From: a virus
Taxonomy: Duplodnaviria; Caudoviricetes
Virus record (IMG/VR): IMGVR_UViG_3300043496_000014
Span: 2,245 to 66,244 of that record
DNA length: 64,000 bases
Reading direction: 5' to 3' (one strand)
Position 1 is the first letter of the stretch, and every line of letters starts with the position of its first letter. The notes under the pieces were generated by a model. That model was not told where the DNA came from, made no database searches, and saw nothing but the letters and a program-made list of their open reading frames with translations. Of this stretch, positions 1 through 64,000 are shown one piece after another. Position numbers and translations under genes: made by a program.

Positions 1-33
1 GTAGGTTTGTACTTCAGTGACACTAACGTACAT
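1..33 (-). CDS. 5' end of a gene running off the window (MYVSVTEVQTY...), possibly a PD-(D/E)XK/RecB-like exonuclease
   Basis: ATG at 33 with AGGA upstream; the 11 visible codons resemble the hSxTEIxxY N-terminus of phage PD-(D/E)XK nucleases; too short to be sure. Confidence 0.3.
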   Translation of the reverse strand, partial: MYVSVTEVQTY

Positions 34-81
34 GGCATACGTATCCTATGCAGGGTGTGGTGTGTAGGGTGTAGGGTGTAG

Positions 82-340
82 TGTGATGAGGCAATAGCCA
101 CATCTATTCGTGATAGCTGTACGGTGTGGTACAGCTATCACTATCTAGTGGGCAAAGCTATTGCTACGTGCAGCATGGTTACCCAGTGCTGTGCCTCACC
201 ACAATGTGCTGGATCGCATTGGGAGGAAACCCAACACCTGTACAGGATACCGTATCCAGTACAGGCAGTGCCAGTGACAGATGGTCACCCAAGGTTACAA
301 GAGCATCACAGTGCAGTGTTGTTAGTGTGATAGGGTGACG
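82..340 (-). ncRNA. candidate structured non-coding RNA
   Basis: Nested stems: 13-bp perfect hairpin 110-141; 12-bp stem TGTGGTGAGGCA/TGCCTCATCACA with a G-U pair on the minus strand; GNRA-capped stem CAGCAcTGG-GTAA-CCATGCTG; CCTGTAC/GTACAGG stem. Confidence 0.45.
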
Positions 341-343
341 CAC

Positions 344-1687
344 TTATGACAATGCTAATTGCCTAGCCAGTTCACGGTTACCAGCATTGCCACGTGACGT
401 ACGGATAACAGGTATGCGTACGTCAATCGTTTTCTTGGCACGTACATAGTACACGTTGACAGGCGTAGTGACAGGAGTGGACGTATCAGTTCTATCTCTA
501 TGTGCACGTGCTAATGCTTGTGTGTGCTTACCCTGTACATAGGTTTCTTCAGCATACACAACATGATGTATGTGTGACAAATCTACACCCTCTGACAATG
601 CCTCGATAGTAGCCACAATTACATGTGGTCGTTTCTTGACACGCTGTGTGTTTAGGAGGGTAGCACGCTGAGTAGGTGGTGTGTCACCTGTTAGTACTAT
701 GTTGGGTGTACCGTTCTTGGTAAGGTGCTTAGATACAGTGTTGGCACTCTCACGGTACCACGTGTAAATCAAAGTGGTGTTTGGTGGAGGTATTGAGTCT
801 ACAATACCCTGTATGGCATCTAGCTTGGTGAGTGTCATGGTTAGTTGACGCAACAGGTAGTACACTTCACCTACACTCTCAATAGGCTGTCCAGCTAATT
901 GCCAATCGTTCTTTAGTTTAGTGTATGCACGACGTACAGCAGTGGGCAACTCAATGGTAATGGGATGCTCAATCAGTGGTGGTAACTCCCTGTGCACGTC
1001 TGTGTAATCACGCATCAGCATGTATGGGGTGAGCATCTTATTGAAGTCTACACGCTTCTTTTCGGCGATACCGTAGATATGTGGTGCGTATGGTGCTTTC
1101 CAATTGACTGCATACCACTCTCTAATGAACGTCCAGTAACTGGTGAACGTATGTGGGTCTAGACAGTGCAACAGGTGCCATATATCCTCATCTGATTTGT
1201 AGTATGGTGTTGCTGTAAGCATGTATGTGTTGGGTGTGCGCCAAATCAACTGTCTAGCAGCAATGGACTGCTTGGCATCTTTGCCTCGTATATGGTGTGC
1301 TTCATCTATCACTAACGTGTTTACACTAGGCATGTCATACGTACGCAACATCTCTGTGTTGATGACACGCACATCAGCATACGTTAGCAACTCTGCTTGG
1401 CGCTTAGCGTGTGCACCTTCAGGTAAGCTGATTGAAGCAGTAGGCAAGAAGTCACACAACGTATCAAACCATTGGTTGGTAAGGTACGTGGGACAGATGA
1501 CTAAAGCAGGTAGATGATTGGCAATGGTAGCAATGGTAGTAGGTGTCTTACCTAAACCGTATGCATCTGCTAGGATAGACTTAGGGTGTGCCATCTGGAA
1601 CTGATGTGCCTCATGCTGATACCCACGTAACACACCAGTAAATGGTGTGGAACATGGGTGTTGATGATGGCTGTGTATAACGTCCAT
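344..1687 (-). CDS. SNF2-family (SF2) helicase
   Basis: Motif I ADAYGLGKT, motif II DEAHH, motif III TATP, C-terminal EGVDL and QALARAHR. Confidence 0.9.
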   Translation of the reverse strand: MDVIHSHHQHPCSTPFTGVLRGYQHEAHQFQMAHPKSILADAYGLGKTPTTIATIANHLPALVICPTYLTNQWFDTLCDFLPTASISLPEGAHAKRQAELLTYADVRVINTEMLRTYDMPSVNTLVIDEAHHIRGKDAKQSIAARQLIWRTPNTYMLTATPYYKSDEDIWHLLHCLDPHTFTSYWTFIREWYAVNWKAPYAPHIYGIAEKKRVDFNKMLTPYMLMRDYTDVHRELPPLIEHPITIELPTAVRRAYTKLKNDWQLAGQPIESVGEVYYLLRQLTMTLTKLDAIQGIVDSIPPPNTTLIYTWYRESANTVSKHLTKNGTPNIVLTGDTPPTQRATLLNTQRVKKRPHVIVATIEALSEGVDLSHIHHVVYAEETYVQGKHTQALARAHRDRTDTSTPVTTPVNVYYVRAKKTIDVRIPVIRTSRGNAGNRELARQLALS

Positions 1688-1692
1688 TGCTG

Positions 1693-2187
1693 TTACCGTC
1701 CAGGTATGGTGAGTTTAGGCATAGGTGGTACGTTGGCAGTGGCACGTGCTTTAGCTTGCTGTGCTTGCTGATTTGCCTGCACTATAGCAGGTATCTGGCC
1801 TGCTGCTATCTCAGCACGTAACTCGTGTACAAAGTCAGCAAAACGGTAGTGTTTGCTAGGTACCCACAGCTTGTACAGTTGCTGTAGTAGCTGTATGGGT
1901 AAATCGTAGTCACGTGCTAAAGCTTCCCAGTGGTTGTCATCTGCACTCATATATGCACTGACATTTTGGGAACCACACTGTGGACAATACTTATAGGCAC
2001 CAATAGCAGTACTAGGTTCCACTCTGTATATACGCACCATCATGCCACATGCAGCATGGCACTTAATGGTGATACGTGGTGGTGTTAGCTCGTGTAGCTT
2101 GACTGGTGGACTGTGATCTATAGCTACATCTACAGCTACAGCTATCTTGGTATCGTCACCGTCACCATCATTCGTCTTCAGCACCAT
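1693..2187 (-). CDS. hypothetical protein with zinc ribbon
   Basis: CHAAC...CPQCGS motif; sits in the operon upstream of the helicase. Confidence 0.7.
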   Translation of the reverse strand: MVLKTNDGDGDDTKIAVAVDVAIDHSPPVKLHELTPPRITIKCHAACGMMVRIYRVEPSTAIGAYKYCPQCGSQNVSAYMSADDNHWEALARDYDLPIQLLQQLYKLWVPSKHYRFADFVHELRAEIAAGQIPAIVQANQQAQQAKARATANVPPMPKLTIPGR

Positions 2188-2265
2188 CGTAGTATCCCTT
2201 GTATAACCTGTACAGCAAGTAGCTAAACACTACTGCAATAATTAAGGTACCAATGTCAATCATGG

Positions 2266-2499
2266 TTATGCCCGTACCCACTTCCAGCATTGCCTACACC
2301 ACAGTACGTCACCTTCAAATGACAGTGACTCAAAGGGTTGCAGTGGCCGCCATAGTGGGTGGTTCAGACACCTGTCTACTCCCATCACTTCCTCTGCTGA
2401 CACTCCTATCCTTATAAGGATGTTCAGACGCACTCGAAACGGTAGCCTGTCTAAAGCAGCAGCTAGGCGTTCAGCCTGCTGTAACGAGGAAGTGGCCAT
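2266..2499 (-). CDS. hypothetical protein
   Basis: 77-aa ORF with GGAG SD, directly downstream of the promoter at 2551-2579. Confidence 0.6.
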   Translation of the reverse strand: MATSSLQQAERLAAALDRLPFRVRLNILIRIGVSAEEVMGVDRCLNHPLWRPLQPFESLSFEGDVLWCRQCWKWVRA

Positions 2500-2550
2500 A
2501 CTGCTGCACTCCAGAGTGTGGGGCCAGTGACTACCGTACCACGTGCAGGT

Positions 2551-12817: not shown

Positions 12818-13261
12818 TTAGTCTGGTGCTTGTATGTAGGTTGTTAGGTGGTGTGCTAGTTTGGCAATATGTTGGGCTATGTTTGGGTCATACTTGTTAG
12901 CCTGCTGTGCCTGTACAGTGTAGTGTTGCATGCTGGCCAGCAACATATGTGCTATGTGTGCTGCACATGCTCGTTGGTATCCTGGCATCATAATGGCAGG
13001 TTGGGTGCACTTAGGTGTGTCGTTATGTGCTGTGTACTCACAAGTAGTGTAGTTGTGTGCAGGTGTTGGTGTGCCTGTTGCACCTACATGTTGGTACGTT
13101 GGTTGCTCACCTGTAGCTGGATTACCAGCAGTACGTTGTATGTACTTAGGCAGTGTAGGTGCCAACTGTGTGTTGCTAGGTGGTAGTTGGTGTGGCCTGT
13201 TGCTGTGTGTAGGTGGGCTGAAGGTAGGTGGGGGTGTGTTGTTGCTGTCATGGGTTGTCAA
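12818..13261 (-). CDS. P/T/H/Q-rich hypothetical protein
   Basis: 147-aa ORF coupled to the upstream gene; extremely CA-rich coding strand. Confidence 0.5.
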   Translation of the reverse strand: MTTHDSNNTPPPTFSPPTHSNRPHQLPPSNTQLAPTLPKYIQRTAGNPATGEQPTYQHVGATGTPTPAHNYTTCEYTAHNDTPKCTQPAIMMPGYQRACAAHIAHMLLASMQHYTVQAQQANKYDPNIAQHIAKLAHHLTTYIQAPD

Positions 13262-18460: not shown

Positions 18461-18574
18461 ACACTGACACTACAAACAGTGTTAGGTATTCACCACACCA
18501 TGCTACTCTGGTCTGTTCATCCCTAATGGCATGCTTGGTGCTCTTAGCACCAACGTATCCATACAGTGCCATGC

Positions 18575-19192: not shown

Positions 19193-19197
19193 GCTGT

Positions 19198-19419
19198 CTA
19201 CGCTACCTGCTTTATGGGAGTAGGGTTGTCCATAGGAGGAAGGCTACCAGAGGCTGTGAGCGTCGATTCTAGGGCACTCCTTTGCAGGGCAGCTATGGAG
19301 AGGCTACTAGCACCCTTGACCCACGCCACGAGGCACCCACGAGCAGCTAGGCACACCCACGCACCCTGGACCCTTACCAAGTCCCTGCTAGGCAGTGCCT
19401 GACCACAGATGACACACAT
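19198..19419 (-). CDS. small zinc-finger protein, paralog of the adjacent gene
   Basis: CVICG...VC-x5-CL-x2-W...SAL. Confidence 0.6.
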   Translation of the reverse strand: MCVICGQALPSRDLVRVQGAWVCLAARGCLVAWVKGASSLSIAALQRSALESTLTASGSLPPMDNPTPIKQVA

Positions 19420-53124: not shown

Positions 53125-54120
53125 ATGACACGTGCAGTACTGCTAGCACAACAACAGGGTAACGTAAAGAGCAAGCACACCATACTACAACCTGTAGGTG
53201 GTGCATGGCAGTGGTGGTCACCAGAGATTATTTCGATGGTGACTAACTCACCACTAGAGAATGTTGTGTCTGACTGGCCCAAAGTGTACGGTGCACTGGA
53301 GTTGTATGGAATAGCTGACTACAACACATGTAGGGCAGCTATTGCCACTATTGCTATTGAAACTGCACACAGGTTTGTACCTGTACGTGAAGCCTACTGG
53401 TTAGATGATGCATACGGCTATGAATTAGGTGAACAGTGGCGTGCAAACAACTTACGTTACTACCCATATTATGGACGTGGACACATACAGCTAACATGGG
53501 AGGATAACTACAAATACTACGGTTGGCGTATTGGCGCAGACTTAGTTACGTTCCCTGATAAAGCACTGGTTGGTATAGTTAGTGCTAATGTGTTTGGTTT
53601 GTATTACTATGAGAAGGGTGTGTACCTAGCAGCACAGCGTGAAGACTGGTACGAGTGTAGAAGACTAGTACAGGGTGCGTATGCAGGTATAGAAGAATTT
53701 GTAGCTATCATTGATTCACTGGGTATGTATAGACTTGAAGTACCCTACACGCTATCACGAGTATTAGAGTTAGGGTACTCCAGGATAGGTGACCCATACG
53801 TATGGGATGGTGAGATACCAGGATCGTTTGATTGTAGTGGCTTTATCAAGTGGACGTATGATGGACGTGTACCTAGCTACACTGATGATATCTATGGTGT
53901 GACATACCCATGTCCTGATCCCAATGGTGGTGATGTGGTGCTATATGAATATCATGACGTGAATCAGCCCAACACAAGATTTCCTCATGTTGGGCTGTGG
54001 TTGAATGACCATGAAACGTTGGATGCACGTTACGGTTATGGTGTTGGTGTACACCCTCATCTTCTTGGAGCTAAGCTTTATACTAGGAGGGTTCCTGGTG
54101 TTGTGGTGGATACGTTGTGA
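53125..54120 (+). CDS. endolysin: GH19-like glycosidase plus NlpC/P60 peptidase
   Basis: IETAHRF, YYGRGHIQLTWEDNY; PYVWDG...FDCSGF...HVG. Confidence 0.9.
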   Translation: MTRAVLLAQQQGNVKSKHTILQPVGGAWQWWSPEIISMVTNSPLENVVSDWPKVYGALELYGIADYNTCRAAIATIAIETAHRFVPVREAYWLDDAYGYELGEQWRANNLRYYPYYGRGHIQLTWEDNYKYYGWRIGADLVTFPDKALVGIVSANVFGLYYYEKGVYLAAQREDWYECRRLVQGAYAGIEEFVAIIDSLGMYRLEVPYTLSRVLELGYSRIGDPYVWDGEIPGSFDCSGFIKWTYDGRVPSYTDDIYGVTYPCPDPNGGDVVLYEYHDVNQPNTRFPHVGLWLNDHETLDARYGYGVGVHPHLLGAKLYTRRVPGVVVDTL

Positions 54121-55006
54121 CAATGCTGTCTGCATTGTCAGTATGCCGTAGTTGATCGTAGCCTAACAGGGTACCACTTATGTGTGTAGGATCAGGGTGT
54201 ACCTGTGCCTGATGCTCTTTTGGGCCAGCATGTTCAGGCTTCTGTGGTACTAGTCTGTTGTACAAGGCTATGTCTTCATCTATTGGTCTGAATCCAGCAA
54301 TACTAATCATGTCTGAGTGTGACTTAGCGTAACTGGTACGTGCACACCGTGCAACACTCAGTGCAATGCATGTGGACTGTGGCAGCAACAGGCGTTCCCT
54401 TGGTGACACAAACGGTAGGTGCCACTCGTTTGTGTGTAGGAACGTTGGCGTACTAGCACGGTAGGCTGTGTGTGCCAGTCCAGCAACCTGCTGCACTTCA
54501 TCCTGTGCTGTATGATGTGTCCGTAGTTCAAAGAAATGCAGCCACCATACGTCGATAGCTGTACACACCAATGTGGTGTACTGCCATGTAGCTAGTGGCC
54601 TATTAGCTATTTGTTTGTGTACACCAATGCCCATAAGTGCCAGTGACTCTAGCAGTGACACATAACGTGTCTTTAACCATATGTGTCTAGCTAGTTGGTG
54701 TCTCCAACCAGTGTGGTAACCTTTTGATGAATGCATACTGACTGCACGCTTAGGGAACCGTGTAGGTACAAATGGATTATTGAGTACGTCCCTCAGTATC
54801 TGTTTGGTAGGCTTAGCACGGTTGCTGTTGGTGGACTTGTTACTGTCCACTTCTATGGCTATCTTGTCAGAAGCTTGCTGTGACTTGTAGATAGTACGGT
54901 GCGTCAATATGTCCTGATGAATAATGCTAGGGTACGTAAGCAGCATGGTTGTTAGCCGTATACCATGTGGTGCTATGCTGTCTGCAACTACAGTGGCTTG
55001 TATCAT
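54083..55006 (-). CDS. thyX: FAD-dependent thymidylate synthase (atypical)
   Basis: VADSI...RLTT, LTHR...SNRAKP, HKQIANR, FFELR....AQDE, WHLPFV, SVARCARTSY, EHQA. Confidence 0.85.
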   Translation of the reverse strand: MIQATVVADSIAPHGIRLTTMLLTYPSIIHQDILTHRTIYKSQQASDKIAIEVDSNKSTNSNRAKPTKQILRDVLNNPFVPTRFPKRAVSMHSSKGYHTGWRHQLARHIWLKTRYVSLLESLALMGIGVHKQIANRPLATWQYTTLVCTAIDVWWLHFFELRTHHTAQDEVQQVAGLAHTAYRASTPTFLHTNEWHLPFVSPRERLLLPQSTCIALSVARCARTSYAKSHSDMISIAGFRPIDEDIALYNRLVPQKPEHAGPKEHQAQVHPDPTHISGTLLGYDQLRHTDNADSIVTTYPPQHQEPS

Positions 55007-55566
55007 GGCTTGTACCTGCTTTCTACTGGTCCTGTGCTGTTGTAGTAATGGCCCACAACGTTGTATGGACGTGTTGACATGGTGTTCATTCGATAGAACC
55101 TAAGTTGCGCTATACGCATACCCTCCCACAGGCGTAGCCACCAGGGTGAAGCATTGAACAGTTCCAGGGTGAGTTGTCCTGACCAACCAGGATCAATGAA
55201 ACCCGCTGTCATGTGCACAGCTAACCACCATCTGCCCAACGAGGAACACCCTGCTATGTCTGCTGCTATCGTAGCATCAGGGTGTAATGTGAGTATTTCT
55301 TGTGTGTGTCCTAGTGCTACACCGTGTGGTGGTAACCAATACTGGTATCCACTGTCATAGGGATACAACTTGTCCTGTAGTAATGGCTGTTCATCTGATG
55401 CAGGATCAAACCTAGCAGGACCGTCCAGGTTAGGTATCAGTAGCTTGCCACCTAAATGCACATCATAGGAAGCAGGCTTGATGTCATCAAAGTTGTATGG
55501 ATTAAGTATGATGTTCTGTAGGTTTATTTCCTCCATGATATCGTAATCACTCAACATCTTTAGCAT
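55003..55566 (-). CDS. dcd: dCTP deaminase
   Basis: PASYDVHLG, SSLGR, TAGFIDPGWSGQLTLE, RIAQL. Confidence 0.92.
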   Translation of the reverse strand: MLKMLSDYDIMEEINLQNIILNPYNFDDIKPASYDVHLGGKLLIPNLDGPARFDPASDEQPLLQDKLYPYDSGYQYWLPPHGVALGHTQEILTLHPDATIAADIAGCSSLGRWWLAVHMTAGFIDPGWSGQLTLELFNASPWWLRLWEGMRIAQLRFYRMNTMSTRPYNVVGHYYNSTGPVESRYKP

Positions 55567-56182: not shown

Positions 56183-56655
56183 GGGTCACTTGGTACCTGT
56201 AGCGTGGTAAGTAGCTGCCTGACAAACAGGTAGCGTATCACGTGTGCCATTGCATCAACTTCATGTCGTTGGTCATGCTTGGTGTTGCCATCGTGTGCTG
56301 TTGGTAGTGCTATCTTGGTACGTGCGTACGATAGGTACGCCTTACGTTGCTGTGGTGTGTCTTCTACTAACTGTATCTCATGCTCTGCACACAATGCCTG
56401 CACACCACCAATGATCCTGACAGTGTGCAATCCATACTTACTAATAAGTTGAGCATTGAAACGTTCCATGATTACCACGTCTACTGGTGGACGTATGTAT
56501 GCCCACACCTGTTCAGGTTCAGTACAGGTAGCACTAAAGTAGTTGTAGTGCAGTGTGCGTGTACCACTGGTGTTGTCCCACAGTGTAGCTATAGCTATGC
56601 CAGTAGAGACACCTGGATCAAGTCCTAAAATTGTCGTTGGTTGTATGTTCATCAT
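56179..56655 (-). CDS. RuvC-like Holliday junction resolvase
   Basis: ILGLDPGVSTGIA, VIMERF, HEVDA. Confidence 0.8.
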   Translation of the reverse strand: MMNIQPTTILGLDPGVSTGIAIATLWDNTSGTRTLHYNYFSATCTEPEQVWAYIRPPVDVVIMERFNAQLISKYGLHTVRIIGGVQALCAEHEIQLVEDTPQQRKAYLSYARTKIALPTAHDGNTKHDQRHEVDAMAHVIRYLFVRQLLTTLQVPSDP

Positions 56656-57146
56656 ATGCCTAAAGCCTTTGCTAACTTTCTTTCCAGTTTCCTTGTTTCG
56701 TTATGTTCCAGTTGCCACGATGTTGTACACTCTTTACACTGTTTGTCACCTTCAACTCTTTTATGTAATCTTTTCTTACACAATCCCAATTCTATATACG
56801 AACCTAGCTGTATGTATTCTTTTATAGCATTCATAAACTGTTCCTCCTTTACTTCATCTAGATACTCACTTAGTAGTGAATACACCACTTCTACATCATG
56901 TATCGTTTGTACACTCCAAGCGTATCGCGGCTTGTATTGCTCAGCAGTAGACTTCTTGTATATGTTACCAATTCCAACGATACGCTGAAATCTGGCTAAT
57001 ACGGTTGGCACATCGTCAGTGTACGATGATTGTGTTATAGAACACGAAATTGATCTACAATTATCTCTGGCACGTTGACTGCAACCAACGTAACCCTCAC
57101 CATCAAAGAAACCTGCTGCCCATGCTAGTTCTGTTTCTGTACTCAT
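56652..57146 (-). CDS. free-standing LAGLIDADG homing endonuclease
   Basis: LAWAAGFFDGEGYV; ATGA overlap with the polymerase stop. Confidence 0.9.
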   Translation of the reverse strand: MSTETELAWAAGFFDGEGYVGCSQRARDNCRSISCSITQSSYTDDVPTVLARFQRIVGIGNIYKKSTAEQYKPRYAWSVQTIHDVEVVYSLLSEYLDEVKEEQFMNAIKEYIQLGSYIELGLCKKRLHKRVEGDKQCKECTTSWQLEHNETRKLERKLAKALGI

Positions 57147-59548
57147 GCTATGTTCCTGATGTCTGATGTGTTCTTCAGCTTTGTTGCATGGCCCCATGAT
57201 TTGCCTATGTATTGCTCTGTAGGTATGCATGGGAAGTCTGGTGCTAGTTCAGGGAATGGTGGTGCCTCCATGACATGCTTGATAAGCTGCATAGCCTCGT
57301 ATGCGTGTTTCTTTGATATCTCAAACACTATAGCATCGTGTACGTCAAACAGGATGTATGAGTCCAATGGTTTGAGTAGTGGATGCAGCTTGATAACTGC
57401 ACTCAGTGTCACGTCACCTGCTGTGCTCTGTATAGGGAAGTTTACTGCCTGCTTCAGTATACGTGGGTTAGGTTCCAACATAACAAATCGTCGTTTGCGT
57501 CCAGTAATAGACTGTATCTCACCTGTACGTTCTAGAGTTTGTAGGGTGTTTCGGTACCATGCGTTGTAGCGCGTGTTACTCCTGAAGAATCCATTAATGT
57601 ATGCCTGTGCTTCTGACACACTGATTTGTGCTGTTTGTGATAGTGAGTAAGCCTCCATACCATAGAAGATACCAAACGTCACTACCTTGGCTATACGTCG
57701 CATTTCCTCACGGTAGTTGTCGTCAGCAGCCATCATTGCTCTGGACTTGTGCATCACATTGACTGCTGTTTCTAGGTGGTAATCCTTCTGGAGTGCTTCC
57801 CACATGACAGGATCGTGTGAGTACCCATATGCTGTGTATATTTCTGCACGTGAGTAGTCAGCATACGCTATCAGGTAGTTATCGTTGGTTGGTATGATGG
57901 CTTGACGTAGCTTACCGTACTTGTCAGCTTGATTAGAAGGTCTAGGGATAGTCTGTACAGCAGGCTTAGCATAGGAACGTCTACCTGTAGCTGTACCATG
58001 TAGGTTGATGTCAGGATGTATACGTCCATGTCCAGGAGAATGCTTACTAATGTGACGTACCCAACCGTCCACGTAAATGGAATAGTTGTGCTCCAGGTGT
58101 CTGTACTCTAGCAATGCATCAACAAATGGGTGTCGTCCACTTAGTGTCTCCAGAACAGCCTTTTTCGTAGATGGGCCACCAGACAACCCAATGATGCCGT
58201 ACAACAGCTTGCCTAGCTGTTGCCATGAATTCAAGTTGATTGGGTCGGCATCATTGGGCCATCCTGCATCGTAGGCTATCTGCTGCATACGCTCCTGTTC
58301 GGAGTCCTTTTCATCACCCCATTCCTGTTCTAGCTGTGTCAGCAGGTGTGTGTCCACACGTGCACCACGTGCCTTTACCTCTTTGAGCACGTTGGCAGCA
58401 GGTATCAGGAGATTCGTGTACACACTACGGGTGCCTTCTGACAGTTGCCAGTCACGTAGCTTACCTGTACACAGCCTAGCAGTGTATGCAGCATCCTTAG
58501 CATTGTATTCCATAAGCTGTGCCAAACCTAGTGTGCGTGTATCTTCATAGAATCCTGCACCCTCATACTCTCTGGCTAGTGGCTTCAAGGAATGATACCC
58601 TGGTCGTTCATCACAGGTGTAGGACTGCAATAGGGTATCCTCGTATATCTGTAGCCATACACCCAAATCACGGTGAATGATGGCAGTATCAAACATAGAG
58701 TAGTGGAACGTGTACTGCACATCTTCTGGCCACACACAGCCTTTGAAGACATGTGCTTCACCTACCCATGTACGTACACCATCTGATATGGCTAGACATA
58801 CCAGAGCATCCTTACGTATGTTGATGATGTCCACAAAGCCACTATTGGTTTCTACATCCACAGCTACAGGTATGTTACGAGGAAGGCTGTCTAGTATCTG
58901 CTGTGCTTCCTGTGTGTTGGTGATGGTGTGGTAGGGTACGTGCCACTTGCTACCATCTGTTGGCCATGTGAGTATTTCAGGTATCTTACGTAAGTCACGT
59001 ACGATATCGTATGCTACGTTGGATACACGGTCAGACTCTGTATTGTTAGTGGACATAGTATCGTGGAACAATGCAGCAGGCTGAATCATAGGCATGATCC
59101 AACAGGAATACTGTGGTGACCACAATACGGAACCACGTGCTTGATTGATCGTGTGGTCAGTCCAGTACTGGCATACCTCTGAACCTAACAGGATGATAAG
59201 TTTAGGACGTATGGCCATTATCTCCTGATGCACACGTCCAAAACACTTATTCATATGTGCTCGTGTTATCTTGCCTTCCTGGTACCAACACAGCATGTTC
59301 GTTACATACATGTTGCTACGTGGAAAGCCACACGCATTAGTCAAGTTATTAAACAGCTTACCTGTTGGTCCAGTCAGTGGCTTGCCTGTCTTTAGTTCTT
59401 CCTTACCTGGAGCAACACCAATCACCATGATGCCATGTTGGATGTTACCCATACCCTGTACACATGGTGAATGACACACTGGCCCCAACACCGTGTTGTC
59501 ATCTATGGTCAGTAGTACGGGTGTGGGTGCAATGAGTGCTGCTGTCAT
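57143..59548 (-). CDS. family A DNA polymerase with N-terminal UDG-like domain and 3'-5' exonuclease
   Basis: VIGVAPGKEE...G.TG.L (UDG family 4-like); DVET exonuclease; ADYSRAE; RRIAKVVTFGIFYG; NFPIQS; VHDAI. Confidence 0.95.
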   Translation of the reverse strand: MTAALIAPTPVLLTIDDNTVLGPVCHSPCVQGMGNIQHGIMVIGVAPGKEELKTGKPLTGPTGKLFNNLTNACGFPRSNMYVTNMLCWYQEGKITRAHMNKCFGRVHQEIMAIRPKLIILLGSEVCQYWTDHTINQARGSVLWSPQYSCWIMPMIQPAALFHDTMSTNNTESDRVSNVAYDIVRDLRKIPEILTWPTDGSKWHVPYHTITNTQEAQQILDSLPRNIPVAVDVETNSGFVDIINIRKDALVCLAISDGVRTWVGEAHVFKGCVWPEDVQYTFHYSMFDTAIIHRDLGVWLQIYEDTLLQSYTCDERPGYHSLKPLAREYEGAGFYEDTRTLGLAQLMEYNAKDAAYTARLCTGKLRDWQLSEGTRSVYTNLLIPAANVLKEVKARGARVDTHLLTQLEQEWGDEKDSEQERMQQIAYDAGWPNDADPINLNSWQQLGKLLYGIIGLSGGPSTKKAVLETLSGRHPFVDALLEYRHLEHNYSIYVDGWVRHISKHSPGHGRIHPDINLHGTATGRRSYAKPAVQTIPRPSNQADKYGKLRQAIIPTNDNYLIAYADYSRAEIYTAYGYSHDPVMWEALQKDYHLETAVNVMHKSRAMMAADDNYREEMRRIAKVVTFGIFYGMEAYSLSQTAQISVSEAQAYINGFFRSNTRYNAWYRNTLQTLERTGEIQSITGRKRRFVMLEPNPRILKQAVNFPIQSTAGDVTLSAVIKLHPLLKPLDSYILFDVHDAIVFEISKKHAYEAMQLIKHVMEAPPFPELAPDFPCIPTEQYIGKSWGHATKLKNTSDIRNIA

Positions 59549-59779
59549 GTACCCTCATGCTGTTGGTTGATGCTGCTAGGTATGGCGTATGGGCACCATG
59601 TGTACGCTGCTTCACCTGTACCTATACCGTGGTACCAACGTAGTGTAGCGTTACACAGGGTGCATCGTGCAAACACTCCTGGTGCACATGGTGTAGAACC
59701 TATGTCTACCATTTCATGCCCATGTGACAGAGCTACACTGGTCAGTGCTCGCATTCTACCTAACTCGTGACTGTCCATC

Positions 59780-60070
59780 TCACTCAAACACCATACCTGT
59801 TCCATTGCACTGTGTACAAGTAGCGTGTGGTGCAGGTTGTTGGCAAGGTTGGCCCCAACCTGTACTCTGTACTGGTGTGTACGCTTGGTGCACACACCTA
59901 CCACCCTCGTTAGACTGTAAGCACATGTAGCACGTTGGACGGCCACAAGACTTACACTTGTAGGCCACATTCACATGACACCAGTCACATAGTGTCACGT
60001 TCACAATGAGTGACTGGTGACCGTTAGTAGTGGTGGGCTGAAGGCGTGTGCCTTTTGGGTATGGTGGCAT
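59780..60070 (-). CDS. Cys-rich hypothetical protein
   Basis: Multiple CxxC; C-terminal CTQCNGTG. Confidence 0.55.
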   Translation of the reverse strand: MPPYPKGTRLQPTTTNGHQSLIVNVTLCDWCHVNVAYKCKSCGRPTCYMCLQSNEGGRCVHQAYTPVQSTGWGQPCQQPAPHATCTQCNGTGMVFE

Positions 60071-60078
60071 GGTGTCAG

Positions 60079-60267
60079 CTAACTGGCCATAGCCATGTCA
60101 GCTATCATACGGTCAGTCAGCAAGCCACGTTCACGTAGGTCATTAATAATCAGCATACGGGTGTATAGGCTCATTGACATACCAAGCTTTGGTGCAAGGT
60201 CTTTCACTTGCTGGTACACAGGTGGTTCTAGATTTACCTGTATGTCTTCACTTCTCATTTGTCGCAT
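60079..60267 (-). CDS. RHH/CopG-like regulator
   Basis: IQVNLEPPVYQQVKDLAPKLGMSMSLYTRMLI; AGGAG SD. Confidence 0.75.
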   Translation of the reverse strand: MRQMRSEDIQVNLEPPVYQQVKDLAPKLGMSMSLYTRMLIINDLRERGLLTDRMIADMAMAS

Positions 60268-60271
60268 ATTG

Positions 60272-62728
60272 TTACTCCTGTGGTGGTGGCAGTGTGGGTG
60301 CTGTGTTGGTGGTTGGCATAAATCGCCATACACGTGTCTTCTGGTTGGAATCGAATTTCCATTCTACCAGGAAACGTTGTTTCAAGGCGTCCTGCATGGC
60401 CCACAGCTTACGGCCAAGCTTCACTGAGTTACCGTACTGCTTCGAGAAGCCTACATTAGAACCACCCAGTACGTCAAATATACCCCATAGCTTAGCAGGC
60501 GTCTGGAATACGTCATTACGGTATCTGGTGCTCTGTATGTAGGCTTCTATGATGCTGACCAGCATACCATCCTCATCTAGGACAAAACCTTTTTGCTGGT
60601 CTACTATCTTCTGTATGGCACTGTAGAAGGCAGTTGGGTAGCCTAACGCATTGGCAATACGTTGGCCTATCTCTGAGAAGTCCTGTACACGAAACTGCGC
60701 CACATGTGTTGGTGGTGGTTCGGCTAGTACACGTTGTACATCCCTTGCTATTTGGCCCCAATACTTAGCTCGATTGTCCCTCACATTCTTAATGATGGCT
60801 GTCTCGTTGTGCCAGTTCTCGATACGTTCAAACGTAATCATCAGCAGTCTGTCTACAACGTCTTCCCTACCAAACTTAGGGTTGTGCGCTGTTACACCTA
60901 ACACTGCCTGTAGACGTAGTGTCACTACATCTAGGTCAGTGTACAGTTTACGCTTGGTTATCTCTGATATACCTGCTGCACGTGCAATACGGTCAGGCAA
61001 CCAACGTTCCCATGTATCTACGTTGTCAATGACATGCAGTGGATCAGTAGCCATTGCATAGTCAAAGTCTTGTGGTGTGGTAATGCCAGATACTGCCTTA
61101 TGTGGACCGTAGAGTATGGCGTATACACGCTTAAATAGCGTGGACTTACCACTACCCTTCTGTCCAAATATGGCAAGGATAGGTCTGCTAGAAATAGCCG
61201 TACGCATGAGGATAAAGATAAACCAGGAACGTAGTATAGCCATAGCTTGTTCAGCGTTTACACCTTCATCTGCTAGGTGCTCCATTGACATACCAAACAT
61301 GGCATTAAACCATGTGTCTGTAGTTGAATCGTTGTATTCGGTATCTAGCTCTGGTGTTACTGGGTAATCGTTCCAGAGAAACACTATGTCATTGTACCCA
61401 TTGATTACAGTATCAATGGTGGTAGGTGTTATGCGTAGTATGTCTTTGGTACCAGCATGTAGTAACATGGTAGGTGGTGTATCGGTGTCTATGGACTCTG
61501 GTGTGTAGTGTGACAGAGTTGCCATCTCACCTGTTGCCTGGAGTCCTGCTGTATGGTTAATCAGTGCGTTGACTACGAACAGGTGTTCAGGCTCTGCTGC
61601 ATTTAGACCAAACATCTTGTCTAGCAGTACGTTCAGTTCAGTGGACACATGTGTAATGGGTATAGGCTTACCACTCTCATCTAGTATGTACCAGAGGGAA
61701 CCACCACGTGCATGGATGAATTTACCATGTGTCATCATCTGGTTACGAGCAAGGTCAGCTACTGCTGCACGTCTGTCTGCTAGTGTCTTGTTGGTACGCC
61801 TAGCTGTGTCAATACGTCCACGTATACCAGATGCACCACTTAGTGCTTCACGTTCAGCACGTATGACATCCTTAGCTAGTTCCTGTAGTCCGTTGTATCT
61901 CAGGAACCTAAATTTATTGTTCTTGGAATGGTATGCAATTAAGAACACTTCCTCACGTTGCATACCCACTCTGAAACATTCAGCCATGAGTGACCACAGT
62001 GCAGTACTACGATCAGGTGCTTCATTGTAGTAATGTACGTGCAAGCCTTCACGTATACGGTGCTTGTTGGATTCAAAGAACATGTTAGCATTGTTGTACC
62101 CTGCTGGTACCTGGAGTGCCTGTCTAATCCAGGAGTCATCCACCAGGATAGCCAACGGTTCGGTAACTGATAGTGGAGGGAATGCGTCAAAGTCAGCAGG
62201 TAGATACAGGTTGCTGTTGTAACTATTGACACGCACACGTTCTGGTGGGTTGTACTTCCAATTCTTGGTATTGGGTACACGCATCATGTGTCCCAACGAC
62301 CAACCACTATGGTCAGCTTTGTCAATACCCCATGAAACACGCCTGCTAATCTGTTCCAAGTCTTCAGCAGGTATCCACTGGTTTAGCTTCCAGTACGCCT
62401 GAAACCTGTGGTCTGATGAATTGAGCAACAGACTAGGTGGCAATGGTGCACTACTAGGGATAGCATGGTCTAGGTCAACCTGAATGGTGCACGTATCCAT
62501 AGCAAACTTCTTGTGCGAATCACGTTCAGTAAACAGGTGTGATGAATAGAATACGTTTAGTCCCTCATCTGTTAGTCCCTGTATGAGCAGTGCAGTGGAA
62601 TCAGAATCATCTGGCCATGCACGCCAGTATTGACGCCAACCACTACCATCAGGTAGTGATGAACATATTGGCAACCAACCACCCTTTTCAGCAGTGATGA
62701 CAAAGTGCAGGAAGGCAAGTGTGTCCAT
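60272..62728 (-). CDS. primase (RepB/AEP-like) - helicase fusion
   Basis: VDLD, SS..RFQAYW, MRVPNTKNWKY, DRS; C-terminal GQKGSGKST and IDNVD. Confidence 0.9.
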   Translation of the reverse strand: MDTLAFLHFVITAEKGGWLPICSSLPDGSGWRQYWRAWPDDSDSTALLIQGLTDEGLNVFYSSHLFTERDSHKKFAMDTCTIQVDLDHAIPSSAPLPPSLLLNSSDHRFQAYWKLNQWIPAEDLEQISRRVSWGIDKADHSGWSLGHMMRVPNTKNWKYNPPERVRVNSYNSNLYLPADFDAFPPLSVTEPLAILVDDSWIRQALQVPAGYNNANMFFESNKHRIREGLHVHYYNEAPDRSTALWSLMAECFRVGMQREEVFLIAYHSKNNKFRFLRYNGLQELAKDVIRAEREALSGASGIRGRIDTARRTNKTLADRRAAVADLARNQMMTHGKFIHARGGSLWYILDESGKPIPITHVSTELNVLLDKMFGLNAAEPEHLFVVNALINHTAGLQATGEMATLSHYTPESIDTDTPPTMLLHAGTKDILRITPTTIDTVINGYNDIVFLWNDYPVTPELDTEYNDSTTDTWFNAMFGMSMEHLADEGVNAEQAMAILRSWFIFILMRTAISSRPILAIFGQKGSGKSTLFKRVYAILYGPHKAVSGITTPQDFDYAMATDPLHVIDNVDTWERWLPDRIARAAGISEITKRKLYTDLDVVTLRLQAVLGVTAHNPKFGREDVVDRLLMITFERIENWHNETAIIKNVRDNRAKYWGQIARDVQRVLAEPPPTHVAQFRVQDFSEIGQRIANALGYPTAFYSAIQKIVDQQKGFVLDEDGMLVSIIEAYIQSTRYRNDVFQTPAKLWGIFDVLGGSNVGFSKQYGNSVKLGRKLWAMQDALKQRFLVEWKFDSNQKTRVWRFMPTTNTAPTLPPPQE

Positions 62729-62738
62729 ATGTATACTG

Positions 62739-63005
62739 CTACCGTGCCACGTGCAGTTTGGGACCACGGTTAGGCATGTTTCTGATTACCACTAACCTAC
62801 CATGTTCGTAGTTAGCCGCTGCCACATCTTCCAGTGGCATCGTAGCAGATACAAACACTTCCAGGTGGTAGTACTCTGGTGTGCACCAGCAACACAAGCT
62901 AGGTATGCTCACACTAATACCCTGGTTGTTCATTGGAGGCATGAATGCGTGCCAACAATGTGGCTTGTCTTCTGTACGCATGTGACACAGTGCATTGTCA
63001 GTCAC
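62739..63005 (-). CDS. hypothetical protein
   Basis: AGGAGG SD plus GTG just after the tRNA; HCWH...CCWC. Confidence 0.45.
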   Translation of the reverse strand: MTDNALCHMRTEDKPHCWHAFMPPMNNQGISVSIPSLCCWCTPEYYHLEVFVSATMPLEDVAAANYEHGRLVVIRNMPNRGPKLHVAR

Positions 63006-63021
63006 TGTAGTGTGTGCCTCC

Positions 63022-63097
63022 TGGTGGGCTAGGCGTGAATCGAACACGCGACCATAGTGTTATGAGCACCATGCTCTGACCACTGAGCTACTAGCCC
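63022..63097 (-). tRNA. tRNA with CAT anticodon, most similar to tRNA-Ile2 (lysidine-modified, reads AUA)
   Basis: GGGCTAG-TA-GCTCAGTGGTCAGAGC-A-TGGTG-CTCATAA-CACTA-TGGTC-GCGTG-TTCGATT-CACGC-CTAGCCC-ACCA; 76 nt with encoded CCA; paired 1:72 and no GGG/CCC anticodon stem, so not an initiator. Confidence 0.92.
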
Positions 63098-63356
63098 TTG
63101 TGTGCTACTGATCGTCTTCTGTTGGTGTGGATATGGTTGGGTGTGGTTCTTCTGTTGGTACAATAGTTGGTTTGGGTTTCTTGGTGCTAGGTGGTTGCAT
63201 GTTGTCTTCTTTGGTCTGTGGCTGTGGTTTGCGCATGGTTTACCTCACATGTGGTGCGTGCGTGCTACTGTAGCACAGCAGGGTAGGTGCCTATCAGTGC
63301 ACCAACAGTGGGCAGACTGTTGGTTACAACGAATTACTACAGTAGCACGCATTATC

Positions 63357-63395
63357 TGTACACACAGGTGACGGTTCGTATCACCTGTGTGTACA
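63357..63395 (-). terminator. 15-bp perfect hairpin downstream of the SSB gene (terminator or processing site)
   Basis: TGTACACACAGGTGA/TCACCTGTGTGTACA; no clear U tract. Confidence 0.55.
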
Positions 63396-63411
63396 TTTCA
63401 GTGCGTGCTAG

Positions 63412-63840
63412 CTACACGCTAGGCTGTGCCAGGATGCGATCAATGTTCGTCTGATCCACTTCAGGTTCATTCTCAGAACGACGATACTTACGCACACTGG
63501 TAGTGATCCATGCCTCAGTACCGTGCAGTTCCTTAAACACCTGTTCCATGTCAACGGATGGCTGCACAACTTCCTCTGGATCAGCACCAAACGCTATGGC
63601 AGCATCCACCATGAATGGCACAGCAGTGGGGCTAGCAGACAGGTTCCTGAACGCCTTCTTACCAGCGTACGGTGCACCCTCATCCTCGTGTACGGTCAGT
63701 TCCAACACAAGCATGGGAAACTTGTCTGGTCCACTGGCGTCACGCACACGTGAGTTAGTGAGCACCACGTGGTACTCTCCTGGTTCCAGAGGCTTACGGT
63801 TCTCCATTGCCTCTGCCGCATTAACAACCAAACCAGCCAT
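63412..63840 (-). CDS. DUF669-like single-stranded DNA-binding protein
   Basis: PLEPGEYHV...PMLVLELTV...YAGKKAFRNL; located in the replication module. Confidence 0.75.
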   Translation of the reverse strand: MAGLVVNAAEAMENRKPLEPGEYHVVLTNSRVRDASGPDKFPMLVLELTVHEDEGAPYAGKKAFRNLSASPTAVPFMVDAAIAFGADPEEVVQPSVDMEQVFKELHGTEAWITTSVRKYRRSENEPEVDQTNIDRILAQPSV

Positions 63841-64000
63841 GTTCTCTGTTCCTTGTAGATGTGTGTTGTGTGTGGTCAGTGTCAGTGTCAGTGTAAAGGT
63901 TAGGTGCCAGGAGTTATGCGCACTCCTGGCAATCGCTCCTACACTACGTTGTGTGAAACGGCGGTGCACGTATTCGCATACATACCTTTGCTCTGTTACT

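What the first reader, a model, noticed from the sequence alone, without database searches (positions are those of the whole stretch)
1..64000. Purine/pyrimidine-alternating genome (apparent dipyrimidine avoidance) coupled to a likely AUA-decoding tRNA: possible UV- or defence-proofed genome
Seen: the DNA is full of GTGT/ACAC/GTAC/TGCA/ACGT. Hand counts of same-class (YY or RR) steps gave 19/59 at 1-60 and 16/59 at 13021-13080, against about half expected. A Lys/Ala-rich tape-measure line (38041-38100) gave 26/59, mostly CT/AG steps. Synonymous choices appear to favour ATA (Ile), GTA/GTG, CGT, GCA, ACA, CTA and GGT, which avoid TT/TC (and AA/GA on the other strand). The only visible tRNA resembles Ile2, which decodes the normally rare AUA. 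Established: cyclobutane dimers form best at TT and TC; C in dimers deaminates to U; DarT toxins and some ssDNA deaminases target TC-containing motifs. Inference: selection against photolesion or defence target sites reshaped codon usage, the tRNA offsets the translational cost, and the UDG-like domain on the polymerase could handle uracil lesions. Only a few lines were counted.
Basis: partly seen in the sequence, partly recalled or inferred. Interest (0 to 1): 0.85.

Follow-up and report, generated by a model that had tools for sequence, protein, structure and literature searches.

The report
Soil phage genome rich in AC/GT steps
This uncultured soil phage and its closest relatives write their whole genome with a large excess of the DNA steps AC, CA, GT and TG, have lost many restriction sites, and carry a tRNA for the resulting excess of ATA codons; protection from ultraviolet light fits only part of the pattern, and the cause is still open.

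Summary
Same-class (RR/YY) steps are 0.417 against 0.500 expected. The deficit survives nulls that keep the amino acids and the codon usage, and it is also present in intergenic DNA.

The rule is not dipyrimidine avoidance. Weak/strong alternation is equally strong (also 0.417). The four steps AC, CA, GT and TG make up 36.1% of all steps against 25% expected. CG is the most depleted step (0.54) and CT is not depleted (1.05).

Four contigs with 67-73% identical polymerase share the bias. None of 154 other phage loci does.

Restriction-site loss is also very strong. CCGG and 26 of 64 six-base palindromes are absent, against 0.7±0.8 expected.

ATA makes up 43% of Ile codons. The tRNA(CAT) has Ile-type marks, and a relative has tRNA-Ile(TAT) at the same position.

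A published photoreactivity index is 22% low. However, avoiding TT and TC alone does not reproduce the pattern, and the phage occurs in soil, rhizosphere and sediment runs.

The cause is unresolved. I favour a clade-specific mutation/repair signature.

Earlier notes of this scan described local dinucleotide-purged islands in other phages, none genome-wide.

The parts
1..64000 (.). Genome-wide excess of AC/CA/GT/TG steps (36.1% of steps against 25% expected). AA/TT, GA/TC, CG and GG/CC are depleted. CCGG and 26 of 64 six-base palindromes are absent.
63022..63097 (-). tRNA with anticodon CAT, read here as lysidine-type tRNA-Ile2 (AUA decoder). It has G3:C70, C4:G69, C11:G24, T12:A23 and anticodon loop CTCATAA.
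   Evidence: ARAGORN; sequence; Rfam tRNA 69.4 bits; discriminators from PMC1635315; tRNA-Ile(TAT) at the same gene position in L081
57143..59548 (-). Family A DNA polymerase with N-terminal UDG-superfamily domain and 3'-5' exonuclease domain. Used as the marker of the clade that shares the bias.
   Evidence: Pfam; homologues; alignment A1; alignment to 1UI0
54083..55566 (-). ThyX-like thymidylate synthase (54083-55006) and dCTP deaminase-like protein (55003-55566). Ordinary dTTP supply; no base-modification enzyme recognised.
   Evidence: Pfam; PHROGs
56652..57230 (-). LAGLIDADG homing endonuclease gene with weaker bias (same-class 0.453, AC/CA/GT/TG share 0.304, GC 0.40). Likely a later arrival, only partly assimilated.
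   Evidence: Pfam
19198..19419 (-). Small ORF without the R/Y bias (same-class 0.502, GC 0.586), the clearest compositional outlier among the 95 genes.
53125..54120 (+). Endolysin (GH19 plus NlpC/P60), used as a weak hint to the host.
   Evidence: Pfam

Best explanation
The window is nearly all of a 66-kb tailed phage genome assembled from metagenomes; near-identical sequence is held by public soil, rhizosphere and sediment runs.

Shown:
- The DNA follows a clade-specific rule that acts on the double strand, not on protein or RNA. A base tends to be followed by its amino/keto partner (A with C, G with T). AC, CA, GT and TG are 45% in excess and all other kinds of step are depleted.
- This rule sets the third codon position according to its neighbours. 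After T a purine is preferred, which makes ATA, GTA/GTG and CTA/CTG the preferred codons.
- On top of it, selection has removed CCGG and 26 six-base palindromes, and the set of removed sites differs between relatives.

Inferred:
- The heavy use of ATA is a by-product of the DNA rule. The single phage tRNA is an AUA decoder that the host's TilS would activate, and it pays the translational cost.
- The cause of the rule is most likely a context-dependent mutation/repair bias of the clade's own replication machinery, a genomic signature in Karlin's sense, rather than proofing against UV or against one named defence. This last step is the weakest: no test run here separates mutation bias from selection.
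For: DNA-level and strand-symmetric:
- The same bias is seen at codon positions 2-3, at 3-1 junctions and in intergenic DNA.
- Both members of each complementary pair shift alike under an amino-acid-preserving null.
- A single rule fits: R/Y and W/S same-class fractions are both 0.417 and M/K is 0.557. Group ratios are identical steps 0.78, transition partners 0.89, complement partners 0.88 and amino/keto partners 1.45.

Clade-specific and maintained:
- Four distinct contigs with 67-73% identical PolA have same-class 0.433-0.436, CA 1.39-1.52 and AC 1.26-1.30.
- All other loci listed in that call (PolA identity 41% or less) lie between 0.460 and 0.544.
- Capsid relatives at 45-61% identity sit in 65-72% GC contigs with GA/TC 1.17-1.43 and CG 1.08-1.39.
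- Against the 154-locus background, z is -4.8 for same-class, +6.7 for CA/TG and +4.6 for AC/GT.

Restriction avoidance is separate from the rule:
- 26 of 64 palindromes are absent, against 0.9, 5.3 and 9.3 in Markov-1, -2 and -3 simulations and 0.7±0.8 under synonymous permutation.
- CCGG is 0 against 83±8, CAGCTG 0 against 44 and CTGCAG 0 against 42.
- L081 keeps CCGG (22 observed, 21 expected) and CTGCAG (18, 15) yet shares the dinucleotide bias.

tRNA:
- G3:C70 and C4:G69.
- L081 has tRNA-Ile(TAT) just upstream of the same small ORF, primase and PolA gene string.
- The ATA share of Ile codons is 42% here and 28-38% in relatives, against 17.7±12% in 73 GC-matched loci.

No methyltransferase, DpdA or hypermodification enzyme was recognised among about 55 of the 96 predicted proteins scanned.
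Against: - No test here separates mutation bias from selection. The planned context-resolved SNP spectrum failed because only 40 of 647 difference rows were shown.
- More distant phages with the same UDG-PolA architecture (40% identity or less) lack the bias, so the polymerase type alone does not produce it.
- The depleted dipyrimidines are exactly the two most photoreactive ones, and Pg is lower than in all 154 background loci, including those at 72% GC. A selective reading therefore remains open.
- Selection on DNA words is plainly effective in this lineage, so weak selection on dinucleotides is plausible too.
- The host is unknown, so a host with the same signature cannot be excluded.
- The tRNA lacks C5:G68 (it has T5:A68) and has an anticodon stem unlike the three bacterial tRNAs that share its acceptor stem.
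Confidence: 0.5

Rival explanations
1. UV proofing. Selection against photoproduct-forming TT and TC steps reshaped the genome, and the rest of the pattern is compensation.
For: - TT 0.73 and TC 0.73 are depleted while CT 1.05 and CC 0.84 are not, or hardly. This matches the photoreactivity order TC > TT > CT > CC quoted in PMC5626843 (passages).
- Pg = 0.196, against 0.252 predicted at this GC (-22%, residual z -5.9), and lower than all 154 background loci.
- Clade relatives have a Pg/expected ratio of 0.84-0.86, against 1.04±0.045 in the background.
Against: - CG (0.54) is the most depleted step and AT is depleted. W/S alternation is as strong as R/Y alternation.
- With TT and TC fixed, the model predicts TA 1.30, GC 1.22, CG 0.83, CA 1.24 and AC 1.19. 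Its rmse over all 16 cells is 0.169, against 0.279 with no constraint, so it explains only part of the pattern.
- The 20 holder runs (16 studies) are labelled soil, rhizosphere or freshwater sediment, or carry no label.
- No photolyase or dimer-repair gene was found among the proteins scanned.
- The benefit by the index is only about a fifth fewer lesions.
Confidence: 0.07
2. Proofing against a host factor that reads very short DNA words, for example a TC-specific deaminase, an ADP-ribosylating toxin, or an unknown nuclease or binder. This would be analogous to CpG and UpA suppression in viruses of eukaryotes.
For: - Selection on words is very effective here: 26 of 64 palindromes and CCGG are absent, and 41 hexamers with a Markov-3 expectation of 8 or more are at 15% of it or less.
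- The avoided sets differ between relatives.
- TC/GA, AA/TT and CG are depleted at freely variable positions.
Against: - TNTC has O/E 1.00 against dinucleotide expectation, and YTC (1.01) and RTC (0.99) do not differ. No extended motif is seen.
- One factor would have to read three unrelated steps.
- The dinucleotide bias itself removes hardly any six-base site (0.9 absent in Markov-1 simulations), so it is not a by-product of restriction avoidance or a route to it.
Confidence: 0.15
3. Selection for a physical property of the DNA, such as even duplex stability, flexibility for packaging, or few AT-rich islands that attract silencers or spurious promoters.
For: - The variance of AT count in 30-bp windows is 0.54 of binomial. 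Windows with 70% AT or more are 0.9%, against 3.7% in shuffles.
- Both the weakest steps (AA, AT) and the strongest (CG, GG) are depleted.
Against: - The variance ratio lies inside the background range (0.75±0.17, minimum 0.51, n=71).
- Alternating R/Y runs of 12 or more number 56, against 69±8 under Markov-1. Long Z-prone runs are therefore no more frequent than the dinucleotides predict.
- ACAC/GTGT is 0.81 of the dinucleotide expectation.
Confidence: 0.1
4. Host mimicry. The phage simply carries the dinucleotide signature of its unknown host.
For: Lytic phages often resemble their hosts in signature (my own knowledge; PMC2917420 seen only in the search listing). The host is not identified here.
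Against: - None of the 154 background loci comes near; these include three bacterial MAG stretches, of which the one of 8 kb entered the background of 154, and prophage-like contigs of 65-72% GC.
- Weak host hints point to Actinomycetota: capsid and primase hits to Arthrobacter and Gordonia phages, Sipho_Gp37, DUF6011 and an Rv2179c-like domain, and a weak Atlas lead. The link of DUF6011 and the Rv2179c-like domain to Actinomycetota, and the high GC of Actinomycetota genomes, are recalled and come from no call.
- Arthrobacter phage Anansi, with a similar replication gene order, has an ordinary signature.
- A survey reports R/Y-alternating patterns as generally suppressed in prokaryotes (PMC4060949, passages).
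Confidence: 0.08
5. The phage's own DNA base modification has dinucleotide-specific targets, and these shaped the composition.
For: The replication module holds an atypical ThyX-like protein, Dcd, DUF6378 and a UDG-like domain. Earlier notes of the scan link purged words to guanine modification in other phages (unchecked).
Against: No methyltransferase, DpdA, hydroxymethylase-kinase or glycosyltransferase family was recognised in about 55 of 96 proteins. The unassigned proteins of 200 aa or more outside the tail-gene block that follows the tape measure number only two (287 aa and 305 aa). dCTP deaminase plus ThyX is an ordinary route to dTTP.
Confidence: 0.05

Closest known systems
Genomic signature (dinucleotide relative abundance, Karlin and co-workers)
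   Same: A strand-symmetric dinucleotide profile that is constant along the genome, shared by close relatives and present in coding and non-coding DNA alike.
   Different: The values are outside the range of the 154 phage loci examined (CA/TG 1.52 against a maximum of 1.27; AC/GT 1.37 against a maximum of 1.21). They reduce to one simple rule, amino/keto partner steps at 1.45 times expectation. Typical ranges in bacteria are recalled, not measured here.
Restriction-site (short palindrome) avoidance in phages
   Same: Specific four- and six-base palindromes are absent far beyond codon-aware and Markov nulls, and the avoided sets differ between relatives.
   Different: The extent is large (26 of 64 six-base palindromes plus CCGG in 66 kb). 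It coexists with strong enrichment of other palindromes: GTGCAC 95, CACGTG 83 and ACGT 586. It does not explain the dinucleotide bias (Markov-1 gives 0.9 absent).
Photoprotective bipyrimidine signature (Jones and Baxter 2016, as reviewed in PMC5626843)
   Same: A low weighted sum of TC, TT, CT and CC incidences for the GC content.
   Different: In that work the low index comes with high GC, and TC is actually high in haloarchaea (passages). Here GC is 48%, TC and TT are low, and most of the pattern lies outside dipyrimidines.
Lysidine-type tRNA-Ile(CAU) genes of T4-like phages (PMC1524935)
   Same: A phage-encoded tRNA with a CAT anticodon and IleRS/TilS-type features, called Met by gene finders (passages).
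   Different: Here it is the only tRNA, in a siphovirus-like genome where ATA is the commonest Ile codon. A relative has a TAT-anticodon tRNA-Ile at the same position.
CpG and UpA suppression in RNA viruses of vertebrates (ZAP, RNase L)
   Same: Virus-wide dinucleotide depletion at synonymous sites, attributed to a host factor that reads two-letter words. Recalled; no paper read here.
   Different: That is an RNA-level, one-strand effect. Here the bias is strand-symmetric, includes intergenic DNA, and no reader is known.

Membership tests
tRNA-Ile2 (CAU anticodon, lysidine-dependent AUA decoder) | CAT anticodon in a canonical cloverleaf | tested here: met
   ARAGORN; Rfam tRNA 69.4 bits
tRNA-Ile2 (CAU anticodon, lysidine-dependent AUA decoder) | Not an initiator: lacks A11:T24 and G12:C23, and lacks the C1/A72 mismatch | tested here: met
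   The sequence gives C11:G24, T12:A23 and G1:C72. Discriminators from PMC1635315 passages.
tRNA-Ile2 (CAU anticodon, lysidine-dependent AUA decoder) | G3 or A3 with C70 or T70, given as a negative discriminator of tRNA-Met and fMet, which usually have C3:G70 | tested here: met
   G3:C70 read; rule
tRNA-Ile2 (CAU anticodon, lysidine-dependent AUA decoder) | C4:G69 and C5:G68, frequent in tRNA-Ile(CAT) | tested here: inconclusive
   C4:G69 is present, but position 5:68 is T:A. The paper calls these pairs frequent, not universal.
tRNA-Ile2 (CAU anticodon, lysidine-dependent AUA decoder) | Lysidine at C34 made by TilS, and charging by IleRS | not testable with these tools
   Needs RNA mass spectrometry and aminoacylation assays in the unknown host.
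UV-target (bipyrimidine) avoidance | TT and TC depleted after control for amino-acid content | tested here: met
   With amino acids and codon usage kept, ratios are TT 0.86 and TC 0.73. With amino acids only kept, they are 0.82 and 0.67.
UV-target (bipyrimidine) avoidance | The bias is confined to, or explained by, dipyrimidine steps | tested here: not met
   CG 0.54, AT 0.88, W/S same-class 0.417. The model with TT and TC fixed leaves an rmse of 0.169 against 0.279.
UV-target (bipyrimidine) avoidance | Light-exposed habitat and higher UV survival | tested here: inconclusive
   Holder runs are labelled soil, rhizosphere or freshwater sediment. Survival is not testable here.
Restriction-site avoidance | Palindromic sites absent beyond nulls that keep protein, codon usage and oligonucleotide composition | tested here: met
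   26 of 64 absent against 0.7±0.8 and 9.3±1.5 under Markov-3. CCGG is 0 against 83±8.
Restriction-site avoidance | Matching restriction systems in the host | not testable with these tools
   Host unknown.
Active family-4 uracil-DNA glycosylase | Motif A (GE-G/A-PG) and motif B (HP-) residues | tested here: not met
   Alignment to Thermus UDG 1UI0 puts GVAPG opposite GEGPG and QPAAL opposite HPAYL. The consensus of 19 homologues reads VIGVAPGKDE and IQPAALFH. That the E and H are catalytic is recalled, not tested.
DarT-type target (TNTC) avoidance | Motif rarer than its dinucleotides predict | tested here: not met
   TNTC 1,657 observed against 1,661 expected.
Host-like genomic signature | Odds ratios equal to those of the host chromosome | not testable with these tools
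   Host not identified. No look-alike among the 154 loci.

The most novel reading that the evidence does not exclude
A widespread clade of soil phages has been rewritten genome-wide by selection at the level of two-letter DNA words. T is kept away from a following pyrimidine, C away from G, and identical neighbours are avoided. This would make the genome less vulnerable to a hazard that reads such steps on DNA: photoproduct formation at TT and TC, or a still unknown host defence. It would be a DNA-phage counterpart of CpG/UpA suppression in viruses of eukaryotes, with a dedicated AUA tRNA paying the translational price.
Probability: 0.2. Interest if true: 0.8.

Novelty: new variant of a known kind. 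Interest (0 to 1): 0.55.

Why it matters
Whether dinucleotide signatures come from mutation or from selection is an old open question. This clade offers an extreme and simply stated case: one rule, a 45% excess. It sits in a phage that occurs nearly unchanged in many public soil data sets, alongside relatives that share the rule but not the list of lost restriction sites. Population data could therefore separate mutation from selection. If selection is the answer, there is a DNA-level hazard for phages that nobody has named. The case also shows that a DNA-level rule can dictate codon usage strongly enough for a phage to keep a decoder for a normally rare codon. Finally, it is a warning for host prediction and binning methods that rely on k-mer similarity.

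Tried and rejected
- **Near-DNA search.** A search of the phage collection found nothing. Protein searches with portal, capsid, polymerase, terminase, primase and endolysin gave only hits below 60% identity, to hosts of several phyla.
- **Host inference.** A tRNA-derived pattern scan of genome contigs gave three MAG hits (SAR324 and two Planctomycetota) with ordinary signatures and different anticodon stems. I rejected these as host evidence. The endolysin Atlas look-up gave only a weak lead, 0.90, commonest phylum Actinomycetota.
- **Mutation against selection.** I laid contigs of four runs on 20 kb. 11 to 427 differences per run were tallied by type, but only 40 of 647 rows were shown and all the data are contigs. 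No polarised, context-resolved spectrum could be made.
- **Bias as a by-product of restriction avoidance.** Rejected: Markov-1 sequences lose 0.9 of 64 palindromes, and L081 shares the bias while keeping CCGG and CTGCAG.
- **General palindrome minimisation as the driver.** Rejected: ACGT, TGCA and GTAC are 2.2-2.3 times enriched. Total six-base palindromes are nevertheless 731 against 900±27.
- **Microsatellite slippage or Z-DNA run selection.** Rejected.
- **AT-island or silencer avoidance.** Not outlying.
- **DarT motif.** Rejected.
- **Amino-acid reshaping.** Modest in long ORFs: Q +2.7 sd, A +2.0, F -1.9.
- **Other notes.** Two- and three-constraint models never fitted fully (best rmse 0.105-0.134). 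Family scans covered about 55 of 96 predicted proteins; the rest, mostly under 110 aa or structural, were not scanned. Supplementary files of papers were not asked for. Palmeira et al. on UV-targeted dinucleotides was not read: only papers holding that phrase came up in the listing, and my attempt to read the phrase in one of them failed. I recall that paper's conclusion.

Full report
**What the window is.** The window is bases 2245-66244 of a single 66,244-base virus record. The record is classed as linear, with an estimated completeness of 81%.

It encodes these recognisable proteins:
- a large terminase, a portal fused to a Mu-F-like domain, an HK97-type capsid protein and a 2,792-aa tape measure;
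- Dit-like and Gp37-like tail proteins and a GH19 plus NlpC/P60 endolysin;
- a replication block with a Sak4-like annealing protein, an exonuclease, an SNF2 helicase, a UvrD-like helicase and a primase;
- a family A polymerase with an N-terminal UDG-like domain, a RuvC-like resolvase, a LAGLIDADG endonuclease, a dCTP deaminase-like protein and a ThyX-like thymidylate synthase.

My gene model has 95 genes covering 94.6% of the genome, in three strand blocks. There is one tRNA. No near-DNA relative is in the phage collection.

**The observation.**
- Same-class steps are 0.417 against 0.500 expected.
- The strand-symmetric odds ratios are CA/TG 1.53, AC/GT 1.37, AA/TT 0.73, GA/TC 0.73, CG 0.53, CC/GG 0.84, AG/CT 1.05, TA 1.04, AT 0.89 and GC 1.06.
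- Permuting synonymous codons among sites of the same amino acid keeps both protein and codon usage. It gives 0.455±0.001 same-class steps, against 0.418 observed.
- Drawing codons by base composition alone gives 0.483±0.001 (200 runs each).
- TT, AA, TC and CG are depleted and TG, CA, AC and GT enriched under both nulls. CT is 1.03 and 1.14, so it is not depleted.
- The bias is strongest where the sequence is freest. At codon 3-1 junctions AA is 0.46, TC 0.40, TT 0.53 and CG 0.46, against AC 1.76, CA 1.75, GT 1.71 and TG 1.50.
- In 3,436 bases of intergenic DNA, CA is 1.61, AC 1.50, GA 0.64 and CG 0.44.
- Every 2-kb window lies between 0.379 and 0.469.
- Little-conserved early genes reach 0.34. 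The capsid gene (0.457), a small ORF at 19198-19419 (0.502) and the homing endonuclease gene (0.453) are the least affected.

**What the rule really is.**
- Purine/pyrimidine alternation is only half of it. The weak/strong same-class fraction is also 0.417, while the amino/keto same-class fraction is 0.557.
- Grouped by kind of step, identical neighbours are at 0.78 of expectation, transition partners (AG, GA, CT, TC) at 0.89, complement partners (AT, TA, CG, GC) at 0.88, and amino/keto partners (AC, CA, GT, TG) at 1.45. The last group is 36.1% of all steps.
- CG is retained mainly as ACGT (586 of 2,030 CG) and is almost absent next to C or G.
- Long alternating runs are 3.5 times commoner than in shuffled sequence (56 against 16±4). 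They are no commoner than dinucleotide frequencies predict (69±8), and ACAC/GTGT is 0.81 of the dinucleotide expectation. I therefore see no selection for Z-DNA-type tracts and no slippage.
- Codon choice follows the rule. After T a purine is preferred (ATA, GTA/GTG, CTA/CTG). After C, A or T is preferred. After G, T is preferred (CGT 3.23, GGT 2.47). After A, C or G is preferred.
- ATA is 491 of 1,143 Ile codons.

**Relatives.**
- A protein search found polymerases of 59-97% identity from metagenomes, none with a name.
- With an alignment of 19 polymerases I fetched 160 loci from metagenome and IMG/VR contigs.
- The four distinct contigs with 67-73% identical polymerase (L081, L082, L083, L162) share the bias: same-class 0.433-0.436, CA 1.39-1.52, AC 1.26-1.30, AA 0.75-0.81, GA 0.81-0.87 and CG 0.65-0.81.
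- All other loci listed in that call, at 41% identity or less, lie between 0.460 and 0.544.
- Capsid relatives at 45-61% identity lie in contigs of 65-72% GC with an opposite profile: GA/TC 1.17-1.43 and CG 1.08-1.39.
- Two named phages with partial similarity, Arthrobacter phage Anansi and an uncultured siphovirus, are ordinary.
- Against 154 deduplicated loci of 8 kb or more (2.64 Mb), this genome has z = -4.8 for same-class steps, +6.7 for CA/TG, +4.6 for AC/GT and -3.8 for CG.
- At about 30% amino-acid divergence, synonymous sites should be saturated (inference). If so, the shared bias is actively maintained and not merely inherited.

**Restriction-site loss.**
- CCGG does not occur at all. 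The expectation is 24 from trinucleotides and 83±8 under synonymous permutation.
- 26 of 64 six-base palindromes are absent. The expected numbers absent are 0.9±0.9, 5.3±1.7 and 9.3±1.5 under Markov-1, -2 and -3, and 0.7±0.8 under synonymous permutation.
- Several absent sites are made of favoured steps: CAGCTG 0 against 44-54, CTGCAG 0 against 38-42, CCATGG 0 against 13-34 and TGATCA 0 against 12-17.
- The four palindromes built around GATC and the four built around TCGA are all missing, although GATC occurs 99 times and TCGA 40 times.
- 41 strand-symmetric hexamers with a Markov-3 expectation of 8 or more are at 15% of it or less. Many of them are not palindromes.
- The sets differ among relatives. 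L081 keeps CCGG (22 observed, 21 expected) and CTGCAG (18, 15). L082 and L083+L162 lack TTAA (0 against 11 and 0 against 8), which this genome keeps.
- Word-level selection is thus strong and recent, and it is separate from the shared dinucleotide rule.

**The tRNA.**
- The gene at 63022-63097 (minus strand) has a CAT anticodon.
- From its sequence I read G1:C72, G3:C70, C4:G69, T5:A68, C11:G24, T12:A23 and the loop CTCATAA.
- In passages of Silva et al. 2006 (PMC1635315), G3 or A3 with C70 or T70 are given as negative discriminators of tRNA-Met and fMet, and so as indicators of tRNA-Ile(CAT). C4:G69 and C5:G68 are described as frequent in it. A11:T24 and G12:C23 are given as marks of initiators.
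- The relative L081 has a tRNA-Ile with a TAT anticodon directly upstream of the same string of small ORF, primase, small ORFs and polymerase. Its acceptor stem is nearly the same.
- The ATA share of Ile codons is 42% here and 28-38% in the relatives, against 17.7±12% (maximum 48%) in 73 GC-matched loci.
- Lysidine-type tRNA-Ile genes are already described in T4-like phages (PMC1524935, passages).
- I put the AUA-decoder reading at about 0.85.

**The UV reading.**
- In its favour, the review PMC5626843 (passages) quotes the photoreactivity order TC > TT > CT > CC and the index Pg = 1.73 TC + 1.19 TT + 0.61 CT + 0.39 CC.
- This genome has Pg 0.196, against 0.252 predicted from GC in the background (-22%, z -5.9). 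That is lower than all 154 loci, even those at 72% GC. The four relatives are also low.
- Against it, I fitted minimum-change models from a GC-matched prior. Fixing TT and TC predicts CA 1.24, AC 1.19, TA 1.30, AT 1.06, GC 1.22 and CG 0.83. Adding CG still gives CA 1.33, AC 1.14, TA 1.21 and GC 1.18. The observed values are 1.52, 1.37, 1.04 and 1.05.
- The equal weak/strong alternation has no UV rationale.
- The 20 runs (16 studies) that hold at least half of the words sampled from a 9.9-kb stretch are labelled soil, rhizosphere or freshwater sediment metagenome; two carry no label. Seven of them may be sources of this very assembly.
- The UDG-like domain aligns to Thermus family-4 UDG with V in place of the E of GEGPG and Q in place of the H of HPA. 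These substitutions are conserved in the clade consensus. A uracil-repair role is therefore doubtful. That the two residues are catalytic is recalled, not tested.

**Other causes considered.** A DarT-type motif is not specifically avoided. AT-rich islands are few, but within the background range. No modification enzyme was recognised in about 55 of 96 proteins. The host could not be identified. Weak hints point to Actinomycetota. The attempt to obtain a context-resolved variant spectrum failed for lack of displayed rows.

**Verdict.**
- Dipyrimidine avoidance for UV or DarT proofing is at best a partial description.
- The cause of the AC/CA/GT/TG excess remains open. I favour a clade-specific mutation/repair signature (about 0.5) over selective proofing (about 0.2-0.3 for all forms together).
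- Literature: three searches aimed at phage dinucleotide bias listed no description of such a phage genome. This covers only the held library, and only listings and the passages named above were read.
- Earlier notes of this scan on other genomes describe local dinucleotide-purged islands, none genome-wide. No look-alike stretch of this genome was on record.

Noticed in passing
L241:1-200 (genome start, outside the window) and window about 63800-64000: The first and last roughly 200 bases of the 66,244-base record share two long blocks. Between them lies a variable tract of GTCAGT-like repeats. This could be a terminal repeat or a repeated control region that has diverged in its repeat tract.
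   Followed up: no
whole window: All four six-base palindromes centred on GATC and all four centred on TCGA are absent, while GATC (99) and TCGA (40) themselves occur. GTGCAC (95), CACGTG (83), TGTACA (55) and TACGTA (54) are abundant.
   Followed up: partly
whole window: Non-palindromic hexamers are missing against Markov-3 expectation: CACCTC 0 against 30, ACGAAG 0 against 26, CAGCTC 0 against 24, CGCAGC 0 against 22, CTCTTC 0 against 19. The pentamers ACCTC, CCCAG and AGGCC are at 0.18-0.25. They are candidates for asymmetric restriction sites or for internal Shine-Dalgarno avoidance.
   Followed up: partly
L081:6234-6308: A relative with 73% identical polymerase carries tRNA-Ile with a TAT anticodon where this genome has tRNA(CAT). 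Two different solutions for reading AUA thus exist in one clade.
   Followed up: yes
window 58949-59548 (minus strand): The UDG-like domain of the polymerase has V and Q at the places of the E and H of the two family-4 UDG motifs. These are conserved in the consensus of 19 homologues, so it may bind rather than cut.
   Followed up: partly
window 18001-38000: Near-identical copies occur in 20 public runs of 16 studies (soil, rhizosphere, sediment). Strains differ by 11 to 427 substitutions per 20 kb, about 69% of them transitions in run X13. One segment, 18373-18809, is deleted or replaced in two runs.
   Followed up: partly
window 56652-57230: A LAGLIDADG homing endonuclease gene overlaps the 3' end of the polymerase gene. 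It holds the most AT-rich stretch found (56740-56882), with GC 0.40.
   Followed up: partly
window 54083-63969 and L245 (Arthrobacter phage Anansi): The order resolvase, polymerase, small gene, primase, tRNA, recombinase, exonuclease and helicase resembles that of Arthrobacter phage Anansi, although the proteins are only about 25% identical.
   Followed up: no
whole window: The six-frame ORF list has 116 ORFs of 100 aa or more for about 60 real genes of that size. Many long ORFs on the wrong strand mislead a simple longest-ORF gene caller.
   Followed up: no
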